From Eledone cirrhosa (Eukaryota), in assembly GCA_964016885.1 (NCBI GenBank), contig OZ024749.1, positions 45,322,001 through 45,386,000 on the forward strand: a DNA stretch of 64,000 nt. Direction: 5' to 3'. Position 1 is the stretch's first letter. Every line of letters begins with the position of its first letter. This document shows, one piece after another, positions 1,962 through 40,546 of the stretch. The translations under genes were made by a program, and so were the position numbers. The notes below the pieces were generated by a model. That model was not told the DNA's origin, did not search any database, and saw nothing but the letters and a program-made list of their open reading frames with translations.

Positions 1962-2232
1962 ATAATATATGCATATATATATATATGTATATGGAAAAAA
2001 TGAAACGAAATTTCATTTCTCACTCTTAGTACGGCTGATACTTAAATATAAGTATGTATACGTCCATACATATATGTATACAGACGTACAGTAGTATGTA
2101 TATATATACATACATGCACACATATATATATGTACGTATGGATTTACCGAACATTTATTATAATGCTCGGTTTGTTTGTAAACAACCATCCCAATTTACC
2201 ATCGTTGCTCTTTTGTTCAACACTGATAAAGG

Positions 2233-2277
2233 AACGATGTACTAGTTTCAAGTTTATTAGCTATCGTCAGCATCGTC
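2233..2277 (-). ncRNA. Type I hammerhead ribozyme motif (family A, left arm)
   Basis: GACGATG-CTGACGA-TAGCTAATAAACTT-GAAA-CTAG-TA-CATCGTT; 7-bp stem I, one mismatch in stem II, minimal palindromic stem III. Confidence 0.65.
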
Positions 2278-2521
2278 TATCTTCCTGCCAGATGATTGAA
2301 CGTCTGAAAGTATATACTTTCCTTATGCATATTAACGGCTGAGTAGCCTAATTTGCATATCGAGTGAGTTAATCGGCCGGGCGCACCGAAAACGATAATT
2401 TACCGTTTTCGGTGCGCCGGGCCGATTAACTCACTCGATATCCAAATTAGGCTACTCAGTGGTTAATATGCATAAGGAAAGTATATACTTTGAGACGTTC
2501 AATCATCTGGCAGGAGGTATG

Positions 2522-2562
2522 CGGTACTGACGATAGCTAATAAGCTTGAAATTAGTACATCG
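2522..2562 (+). ncRNA. Type I hammerhead ribozyme motif (family A, right arm)
   Basis: CTGACGA-T-AGCT-AATA-AGCT-T-GAAA-TTAG-TA-CATCG; stem I partly mutated. Confidence 0.55.
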
Positions 2563-2744
2563 TTCCTTTATCAGTGTTGAACAAAAGGGCAACGATAGTT
2601 GCTAAACACTGTACGGCGTAATTGGGATGTTTGTTTACAAATAAACCGAGCATTATAATAAATGTTCGGTAAATCCATACGTACATATATGTACGTCTGT
2701 ATACATATATGTATGTACGTATACATACTTATATATGCTCTGCG

Positions 2745-14019: not shown

Positions 14020-14630
14020 TATTTGGTTTCGGTCAATCTCCATCACTCTCTCACTCTTACTCTCACTCCTTATCACTCTATCCCTCTCTGTTTCGCTCCA
14101 TATTTATCTCTCTCATTCCCGTCCCTCCTATATATCTTCACAGTCAAAATCTCTGCTTTCTCCACAATCTCTCTCTCTTTCTCCTCCACACTCACTTTCT
14201 CTCTCATTCTCTCTTTGTTTTCTCTCTAATTTCTTTCCTCACCTCTTCTCCGCTTCAAACTCTACACCTCTCTCCTGAGCTCTATCTCTTTCCTTCTCTC
14301 ACCATTTCTATCTTTCTTTCTCCACCCCTCTCTCTCACTCTCTCTTCTTGTTTCCTCTGCAATTTCATTTACCATCTCTTTTCCGCTTCAATCTCTGCAC
14401 CTCTCCCGTACTCTATCTCATTTCTTCTCTCCCCATTTATCACATTCTTTCTCCACCCCTCTCTCCTTCACACTCACTCTCTCTTTCTCTCTCACCCTCT
14501 CTTCTTGTTTCCTCTCCAATTTCATTTACCACCTCTTCCCTGCTTCAATCTCTGCAACTCTCTCGTGCTCTATCTATTTCCATCTCTCACCATTTCTCAC
14601 TTTCTTTCTCCACCTCGTTCTCCAACATCT
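14020..14630. repeat. Pyrimidine-rich degenerate minisatellite
   Basis: Recurring units such as tcttgtttcctct..aatttcatttacca.ctctt..cgcttcaatctctgca and tctcaccatttct..ctttctttctccacc. Confidence 0.7.
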
Positions 14631-36942: not shown

Positions 36943-37796
36943 AGTATGTACGTATGTATACGTACATACATATATGTATACAGACATACAGTAGTATGTA
37001 TATATATACATACATGCATACATATATACATGCACGTATCGGTTTACCGAACATTTATTATAATGCTCGGTTTGTTTGTTTGTAAACAAACAGCCCGAAT
37101 TACGCCGTACAGTGTTTAGGCAAACACGTCACCTTTTTGTTCAACACTGACACAGGGCTGAAAATTCGGGCTGTTTGTTTGTTTACAAACAAACAAACCT
37201 AGCATCATAATAAATGTTCGGTAAACCGATACGTGCATGTATATATGTGTGCATGTATGTATATATAAACATACTACTGTACGCCTGTATACATACATAC
37301 ATACTTACATTTAAGTAAGTGCCGTACTAAGAGTGAGAAATGAAATTTCGTTTCATTCTATTCCATTTATCGTTTTCGGTGTGCTCGGCCGACTGAACTG
37401 ACTCGATATGCAAATTAGGCTGCTCAGCCGTTAATATGCATAAGGAAAGTATATACTTTCAGACGTTCAACCATCTGGCAGGAAGGTATACGATGCTGAC
37501 GATAGCTAATAAGCTTGAAACTAGTATAGCGTTTCTGTGTCAGTGTTGAACAAAAAGGTAACGTGGTTGCCTAAACACTGTACGGCGTAATTCGGGCTGT
37601 TTGTTTACAATGATTGTCTGTTTAAATGTTCGGTAAACAGATACGTGCATATATATATGTGTGCATGTATGTATACATATACATACTACTGTACGTCTGT
37701 ATACATATATGTATGTACGTGTACATACATACATACTTACATTTAAGTAAGTGCCATACTAAGAGTGAGAAATGAAATTTCGTTTCATTCTATTCC

Positions 37797-37801
<5 letters not shown>
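36943..37801. mobile_element. Family A element: inverted arm plus two tandem sense units
   Basis: Tail-less inverted arm 36943-37152, sense arm with tail to about 37368, then a full about 430-bp sense unit ending in the same tail ttccattta. Confidence 0.85.
37490..37532 (+). ncRNA. Type I hammerhead ribozyme motif (family A)
   Basis: ACGATG-CTGACGA-T-AGCT-AATA-AGCT-T-GAAA-CTAG-TA-TAGCGT. Confidence 0.65.
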
Positions 37802-37839
<38 letters not shown>

Positions 37840-37840
<1 letters not shown>

Positions 37841-38066
37841 TTATTAAAATAACAGATTAACTTTAGGCAAAGAATCGGTGCTTTCACCCTTAACGGGATC
37901 TTCTGAAAGTTTTTCAGAAAATCCCGTTAAGGGTGAAAGCAGCGATTATTTGCTTAAGCTTTAATCTGTTATTTAAATAAATATTTGCTCTACGGTTCTG
38001 ATATATTTGATATATATTTATCCTTATCGAGCCCTCTTTGGATTTTATTCTTCAAATTTATTATTA

Positions 38067-38070
<4 letters not shown>
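37840..38070. mobile_element. Family C asymmetric palindrome
   Basis: 70-bp arms folding at about 37910; right arm has about 90 bp tail; (TA)n flanks. Confidence 0.9.
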
Positions 38071-40119: not shown

Positions 40120-40546
40120 ATGCCGGTAATTTTGGAGGAGCAGGAAAGTCGATTAAATCGACCCCAGTGCATTACTGGTATTATATGTTATCAACCCCGT
40201 AAGAATTCCAGCAAAGATGCACCTGCTTACGTACCAAATATTACCAAGCAGTAATCATCTTGGTCAATATGGGGGAGGGAAAAGTTGATTAAATCGACAC
40301 CAGTGCGTTACTGGCACTTTATTTTATTGACCGCGTAAGAATTCCGACAAACACGCACAAGCTTACTTATCAAATGCTTCCAAGCAGCAAACATCTTGGC
40401 CAATTTGATGGATGGAAAAGTTGATTTTAACAACATCGACCCCAATGTGTTACTGGTAATTTATTTTATCGACCACGTAAGAATTCCGGCAAAGACGCAC
40501 CCTCCTACTTATGAAATACTACCAAGCAGAAATCATCTTGGCCAAC
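40120..40546. repeat. Three tandem 135-140 bp units containing a SINE B 3' fragment
   Basis: aaagt.gatt..atcgac.ccagtg..ttactgg…cgtaagaattcc…ccaagcag.aa.catcttgg.caa repeated three times. Confidence 0.85.

What the first reader, a model, noticed from the sequence alone, without database searches (positions are those of the whole stretch)
36943..37801. Head-to-tail family A units: candidate ~430-nt retrozyme-like monomer
The tail end of one sense unit (…ctattccattta) runs directly into the head of the next (tcgttttcgg…), at the same position where the 2399 palindrome folds. No coding remnant was seen in the unit and it has one HHR. Established: metazoan non-LTR retrozymes are short tandem HHR repeats that yield circular RNAs. 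Inference: this may be a non-autonomous monomer copied from a circular or tandem template by a Penelope RT. Its minimal ACTAGT stem III suggests dimer-dependent cleavage.
Basis: partly seen in the sequence, partly recalled or inferred. Interest (0 to 1): 0.75.

Follow-up and report, generated by a model that had tools for sequence, protein, structure and literature searches.

The report
Hammerhead retrozyme with Penelope insertion footprint
This is one decayed insertion of a roughly 430-base non-coding repeat that carries a hammerhead (predicted self-cutting) RNA motif in over 11,000 copies in an animal genome; it is a known kind of parasitic element (a retrozyme), and its ends match those of protein-coding Penelope-like retrotransposons in the same genome, which likely copy it.

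Summary
5,670 of 6,186 exact heads follow the tail's last five bases; none of the 23 most deviant leads into an ORF. The locus is one two-armed insertion in (TA)n: an inverted 213-base arm plus a 1.5-unit arm. It has one hammerhead, with a damaged stem I, so it cannot itself release a monomer. The unit border is an insertion end, not the cleavage site (156 bases away). In 49 of 52 classifiable two-armed copies one arm ends at an inner and the other at an outer fixed site, 62 bases apart. Coding Neptune-type Penelope elements here show the same pattern. Verdict: new member of the animal non-LTR retrozymes, likely mobilised by a Neptune-type protein. Whether the template is a circle or an uncut multimer is open; cleavage, expression and the partner family are untested or unresolved. 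The scan noted this pattern before on other DNA, including this genome.

The parts
36943..37155 (-). Inverted arm: unit bases 164-379, ending at the inner fixed site next to (TA)n
   Evidence: locus L001
37156..37161 (.). Inversion joint between the two 5'-truncated arms (6 extra bases)
   Evidence: row L001
37162..37370 (+). 5'-truncated upstream copy (unit bases ~218-441), no hammerhead; forms the partial tandem
37371..37802 (+). Full 432-base unit, ending at the outer fixed site; followed by (TA)n; degenerate stretch near 37600-37630
37361..37379 (+). Tail-to-head junction, 4,078 exact copies in the genome
37490..37532 (+). Type I hammerhead: stem I 37490-37495 with 37527-37532; core 37496-37502 and 37517-37520; stem II 4 bp with a U.U pair at its base; stem III 2 bp in a 6-base palindrome 37520-37525; predicted cut after 37526. 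Stem I is damaged in this copy (5 of 6 pairs)
37740..37801 (+). 62-base 'tail' between the inner and outer fixed 3' ends (predicted RT start sites)
37331..37404 (+). Predicted tail-head helix (37331-37337 with 37398-37404) around the junction; one compensatory change between subfamilies; one pair is broken in this copy
37802..37844 (.). (TA)n target remnant on the right
1988..2729 (.). Second, more diverged two-armed insertion of the family (81-83% to the unit): reverse arm from the outer end, forward arm with an internal deletion ending at the inner motif (by eye)

Best explanation
The locus is one two-armed insertion of a high-copy, non-coding, head-to-tail hammerhead repeat into a TA microsatellite, likely made by a Neptune-type Penelope reverse transcriptase-endonuclease that would copy a head-to-tail RNA (probably a circle, otherwise an uncut multimer) from two predicted fixed start sites. 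Steps: (1) Tandem copies are likely transcribed (inferred). (2) Paired hammerheads would cut as dimers and the monomer would be ligated to a ~430-nt circle (inferred from known retrozymes). (3) The borrowed protein likely cuts both strands of (TA)n and primes one cDNA at the inner and one at the outer site, 62 bases apart (the ends are shown; the enzyme is inferred). (4) Both cDNAs run through the hammerhead and the junction and stop at scattered points, where they join head to head with short overlaps (shown in DNA). (5) Some arrays later expand at DNA level into satellites with higher-order periods (periods shown, mechanism inferred). This copy is probably a dead end.
For: Copy number and junction. 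No ORF upstream: 0 of 23 deviant heads (3 mutated tails, 19 inversion joints, 1 other repeat); no PLE protein hit directly 5' of a head in 106 loci. Fixed 3' ends and scattered 5' ends. 49 of 52 classifiable two-armed insertions are inner+outer (p=5e-12 against 0.5); 132 of 160 inner/outer ends are flanked by TA-like sequence against 445 of 8000 background 12-mers. The same inner+outer, TA-flanked, back-to-back layout is seen by eye in coding Neptune-type loci L139, L142, L143, L146, L148, L149, L152, L155. PMC11167929 shows a PLE protein extending both target strands from two internal RNA sites that define the tail (parts 1-2 of 4 read). Template not cut at the hammerhead: 40 inner and 32 outer arms of 49 are long enough to cross it, and joints do not pile up at the cut site. 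For a circle: in L181 all 9 pieces on both arms are nearly identical, and their two-site haplotype occurs only 8 times in the genome, all in that insertion, 5 forward and 3 reverse. RNA structure is kept: stem I fully paired in 144 of 175 locus-level variants, with three subfamily pairings at one position; tail-head pair U-A to C-G.
Against: No cleavage, ligation or RNA data. The autonomous partner was not found: no nucleotide match beyond the family's own copies in 20 long-ORF PLE regions, and different features point to different families (tail length to F137, a 14-base end motif to F149, hammerhead type to F140). Two of 43 loci with tandem pairs (L123, L191) join different subfamilies at 6-7 diagnostic sites, and 5 of 43 differ at 3 or more, which one monomer circle cannot give. 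Only 8 of 43 tandem loci and 2 of 24 inverted pairs share a private allele. PMC11167929 found hammerhead cleavage unnecessary in vitro and unprocessed RNA the main substrate. In the 2026 preprint 8 of 9 tested dimers did not cleave. Covariation rests on 2 of 53 pairs, probably two or three events. The sample of 124 insertions is not random (picked by head similarity, junction, exact core, or by hand), and includes one duplicated pair.
Confidence: 0.8

Rival explanations
1. Same Penelope-type copying, but the template is only a linear read-through multimer from tandem arrays; the hammerhead cuts rarely or acts at another step and circles play no part.
For: Long arrays exist as sources (at least 39 units at C1:70.05-70.07 Mb). 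Subfamily mosaics L123 and L191. PMC11167929: unprocessed RNA dominates. Isolated monomer hammerheads fold no better than shuffles and stem III is absent from the predicted minimum (4 of 4).
Against: L181 would need a source of at least 5 identical units carrying its private alleles, and none is in this assembly (it could have been lost or be on another haplotype). The core is intact in 153 of 180 locus-level variants (sample partly chosen for the core) and stem I is compensated between subfamilies, which suggests use. Circles are shown for mussel, coral and axolotl retrozymes (PMC7229834, parts 2-4 of 6 read).
Confidence: 0.4
2. The copies are only the 3' ends (pseudo-LTRs) of 5'-truncated insertions of a protein-coding Penelope element, not an independent element.
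For: The anatomy is that of a pLTR with tail (PMC8557442 passages). The 2026 preprint derives retrozymes from pLTRs.
Against: 5,670 of 6,186 heads follow the unit's own tail directly; 0 of 23 doubly deviant heads lead into coding sequence. The remaining 493 heads with a partial mismatch were not inspected. None of 124 sampled insertions carries an ORF.
Confidence: 0.06
3. A satellite or fold-back DNA element spreading only at DNA level (unequal exchange, rolling-circle DNA or cut-and-paste), with the hammerhead as a passenger.
For: Higher-order periods exist: alternating A/B units in L180 and L120, a 3- or 6-unit period in L063. Two-armed copies look like inverted repeats.
Against: The two arms end at different sites and are truncated at scattered points, unlike terminal inverted repeats. 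Most copies are short and dispersed on many contigs. The footprint equals that of coding retroelements.
Confidence: 0.04

Closest known systems
Animal non-LTR retrozymes (PMC7229834, parts 2-4 of 6 read; bioRxiv 10.64898/2026.07.22.740005, parts 1-3 of 5 read)
   Same: Non-coding tandem unit of a few hundred bases with one type I hammerhead; monomers, dimers and long arrays; PLEs in the same genome. Axolotl HHR_Amex2 also has a U.U pair at the base of stem II and cleaves better as a dimer.
   Different: Circles and cleavage are shown for coral, mussel and axolotl, not here. In the parts read, those papers propose PLE mobilisation from co-occurrence and pLTR similarity but do not describe two fixed ends, back-to-back arms or TA targets. 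Target-site duplications cannot be read in (TA)n.
Neptune-clade Penelope-like elements and the PLE 'tail' (PMC8557442, passages; PMC11167929, parts 1-2 of 4; PMC4209133, parts 1-2 of 4)
   Same: Partial tandem, inverted 5'-truncated copy, tail on one end only, microsatellite target, hammerhead with short palindromic stem III. Coding elements in this genome show the same layout. Clade assignment rests on the C-terminal GIY-YIG and a Cys-rich linker seen, named from recall.
   Different: No ORF; tail is 62 bases against the published 30-40 (about 39 in three families here, about 62-66 in F137).
Non-autonomous Chlamys elements such as MRC1 (PMC8557442, one passage)
   Same: Non-autonomous PLE derivatives with pLTRs and multicopy head-to-tail insertions.
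   Different: Green algae; reported to lack canonical hammerheads; they resemble autonomous partners at the 3' end, whereas no such partner was found here.

Membership tests
Animal non-LTR retrozyme | Short head-to-tail unit, no protein coding | tested here: met
   420-441 bases in the reference copies; no PLE protein match
Animal non-LTR retrozyme | [quoted passage not shown] | tested here: met
   Met for the family (L181, L182, L018); not for this locus, which has one
Animal non-LTR retrozyme | No LTR/PBS/PPT organisation | tested here: inconclusive
   No LTR-internal-LTR layout in any mapped locus; PBS and PPT were not searched
Animal non-LTR retrozyme | Self-cleavage (monomer weak, dimer better) | not testable with these tools
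   Only folding
Animal non-LTR retrozyme | Expressed as circular RNA | not testable with these tools
   No run on record as RNA was available
Non-autonomous Penelope-like element | Partial tandem plus inverted 5'-truncated copy | tested here: met
   64 two-armed, 54 one-armed, 6 complex of 124 insertions
Non-autonomous Penelope-like element | Two fixed 3' ends (optional tail) | tested here: met
   49 of 52 inner+outer; same in coding elements
Non-autonomous Penelope-like element | Microsatellite target bias | tested here: met
   132 of 160 ends against 445 of 8000
Non-autonomous Penelope-like element | Sequence shared with the pLTR of an autonomous partner | tested here: inconclusive
   None in 20 long-ORF regions and 30 short GIY-YIG loci, out of 10,595 candidates of which 150 were scored; only a 13-of-14 motif match, post hoc
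Autonomous Penelope-like element | RT plus GIY-YIG ORF between pLTRs | tested here: not met

The most novel reading that the evidence does not exclude
A dimeric Neptune-type protein rolls around one ~430-nt hammerhead circle from two fixed sites, one protomer per cut DNA strand, so every two-armed insertion is a record of one circular RNA. The family would then be genomic proof that animal retrozyme circles are the templates of Penelope-type retrotransposition, and the 62-base spacing would point to the F137 family as the partner.
Probability: 0.35. Interest if true: 0.65.

Novelty: new member of a known kind. Interest (0 to 1): 0.4.

Why it matters
The class is known, so the element itself is no surprise. 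Its value is as a test system. In the papers read, mobilisation of animal retrozymes by Penelope-like elements is a proposal resting on co-occurrence and pLTR similarity. Here the retrozyme and coding Neptune-type elements of one genome leave the same footprint, near-intact candidate proteins are at hand (open frames of 938 and 1096 codons), young near-identical copies exist, and both predicted start sites are mapped. That makes the partner and the circle-versus-multimer question directly testable in vitro.

Tried and rejected
Rfam scan: no hammerhead family among the best 150 of 298 matches shown; the list is dominated by microRNA models on TA palindromes; 148 weaker rows not seen. Repeat finder on the whole window was swamped by microsatellites. 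A Pfam model for the PLE thumb region was not in the library. Sequencing runs: no RNA holder listed; contigs of four runs of unknown kind were laid and say nothing on expression; two other coded organisms hold 85-95% similar pieces at low depth, not followed up. Idea that 5' ends pile up at the cleavage site or at stem I: not seen in joints; the excess near unit base 120-128 comes from selecting loci by the intact core. First count of subfamily differences between neighbouring units and an apparent 'B-type first unit' were alignment artefacts and were redone on a multiple alignment. One row (L174) of alignment A1 had wrong coordinates and was dropped for A2. Circular folds score z -4.8 to -7.7 on 30 shuffles, but TA palindromes inflate this and the window slice was 2 bases short, so it carries little weight. 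Short frames across the junction were judged chance. Literature searches for a description of this family or of two fixed ends in retrozymes (listings only, except the five papers cited) found none; Repbase and Dfam could not be searched, and the preprint's supplements were not seen, so the family may already be catalogued. Sequence look-up in earlier scan notes was empty.

Full report
Observation. The window is part of a 3.0-Gb, TA-rich animal assembly. At 37369-37371 the tail of a sense copy runs into the head of a full 432-base unit. Mapping shows three pieces: an antisense arm (36943-37155, unit bases 164-379), a 6-base joint, a partial sense copy (from ~37162) and the full unit, followed by (TA)n. 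There is one hammerhead, at 37490-37532. A second, more diverged insertion lies at 1988-2729.

Family size and junction. The exact junction occurs 4,078 times and the exact 26-base hammerhead core 11,409 times; reversed controls give 0. Of 6,186 exact heads, 5,670 follow the last five bases of the tail. All 23 heads with both upstream bases different were inspected: 3 mutated tails, 19 inversion joints, 1 other repeat, none coding. The other 493 were not inspected. Eleven PLE protein frames from this genome hit flanks of some of 106 family loci, never directly 5' of a head. The unit is therefore a closed head-to-tail sequence without an ORF. Arrays run from partial tandems to at least 39 units. 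Clustering of 65 full units gave five groups and four singletons, this copy among them.

Insertion anatomy. 3' ends pile up at two sites 62 bases apart, each followed by (TA)n; 5' ends and inversion joints are scattered. Of 124 insertions (non-random sample; big unspanned arrays, the 23 deviant-head loci and known duplicates were dropped, one duplicated pair remains), 64 are two-armed, 54 one-armed and 6 complex. Twelve two-armed cases have an unclassifiable end; of the other 52, 49 pair an inner with an outer end and 3 are outer-outer, two of which continue into a further head. I had the two ends; the formal inner/outer count followed an earlier scan note (e1-8807173). TA-like flanks: 132 of 160 ends against 445 of 8000 background samples.

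Comparison with coding elements. The genome has 10,595 GIY-YIG candidates, 150 scored. Twenty long-frame regions include RT plus GIY-YIG proteins. By eye, eight of these loci show opposite-strand arms with one inner and one outer end in (TA)n. Spacing is about 39 bases in three families and about 62-66 in F137. Published PLE hallmarks are the same: partial tandems, inverted truncated copy, tail at one end, microsatellite bias (PMC8557442 passages), and two internal RT start sites with extension of both target strands (PMC11167929). No partner sharing real sequence with the unit was found.

Ribozyme. The motif has a 6-bp stem I, a 4-bp stem II with a basal U.U pair, and a 2-bp stem III inside a 6-base palindrome. 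The core is intact in 153 of 180 locus-level variants and stem I is fully paired in 144 of 175; one position reads A-U, G-U or U-G by subfamily. On 18 real units, 98.4% of cells pair, but only 2 of 53 pairs change on both sides. The second is in a helix joining tail and head: across 86 junctions it reads U-A 49, C-G 29, U-G 5, unpaired 3. Four isolated monomers fold no better than shuffles, as expected for dimer-dependent motifs (PMC4209133). This copy has one mismatch and one new wobble in stem I, and neither partial arm includes a hammerhead, so it cannot release a unit-length RNA.

Template. Because copying starts 220-285 bases downstream of the cut site and most arms run through it (40 and 32 of 49; 12 and 5 through two), the template was uncut or re-ligated there. 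A cut linear monomer is excluded as the main template. For a circle: L181 has nine nearly identical pieces on both arms, and its haplotype is found only there, 8 hits. Against a monomer circle as sole template: L123 and L191 join different subfamilies, and most neighbouring units share no private allele. Alternating and higher-order arrays (L180, L120, L063) point to later DNA-level expansion. I put circle and uncut multimer at about even odds.

Relation to known work. This fits the animal non-LTR retrozymes (PMC7229834; preprint 10.64898/2026.07.22.740005), whose mobilisation by PLEs is proposed there. Circularity and cleavage could not be tested. Earlier scan notes report the same two-armed pattern for other units in this and other genomes, and one describes a ~420-base dimer in this genome that may be this family; these are unchecked notes, not support.

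Verdict. Real, high-copy, new member of a known kind; this locus is a decayed copy. Interest 0.4, for the direct footprint match with coding Neptune-type elements and the tests it opens.

Noticed in passing
L137 and L156, 3' repeat downstream of the ORF: Neptune-type pLTRs carry a hammerhead-like motif with U in place of C3 and A in place of G8, and a palindromic stem III; read by eye, matching the U3-A8 variant in PMC4209133. F149 has a more degenerate form.
   Followed up: no
window 37842-38070: A different small fold-back repeat shares the TA run; a similar copy flanks L149 and its ends recur beside several family insertions. It may be another two-armed non-autonomous element.
   Followed up: no
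window 1085, 16720 and 55429 (+ strand): Other hammerhead-like cores; the 16720 type recurs near PLE loci L139 and L155.
   Followed up: no
L137 (938-codon frame), L139 (1096-codon frame): Near-intact Neptune-type RT/GIY-YIG elements with both pLTRs; candidates for in vitro work.
   Followed up: partly
L063/L066 (C1:70.05-70.07 Mb), L064, L180: Satellite-like arrays of the unit with 2-, 3- or 6-unit periods; in L063 many units have a changed first core base, so the ribozyme is probably lost there.
   Followed up: partly
L148: A family insertion sits in the TA run directly at the inner end of an F137 Neptune arm, i.e. nested use of the same target.
   Followed up: no
L184 (C1:19.617-19.626 Mb): Two insertions are each present twice, apparently a local segmental duplication.
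   Followed up: no
window 40145-40545, 14198-14614: Unrelated tandem repeats of 136 and 131-157 bases.
   Followed up: no
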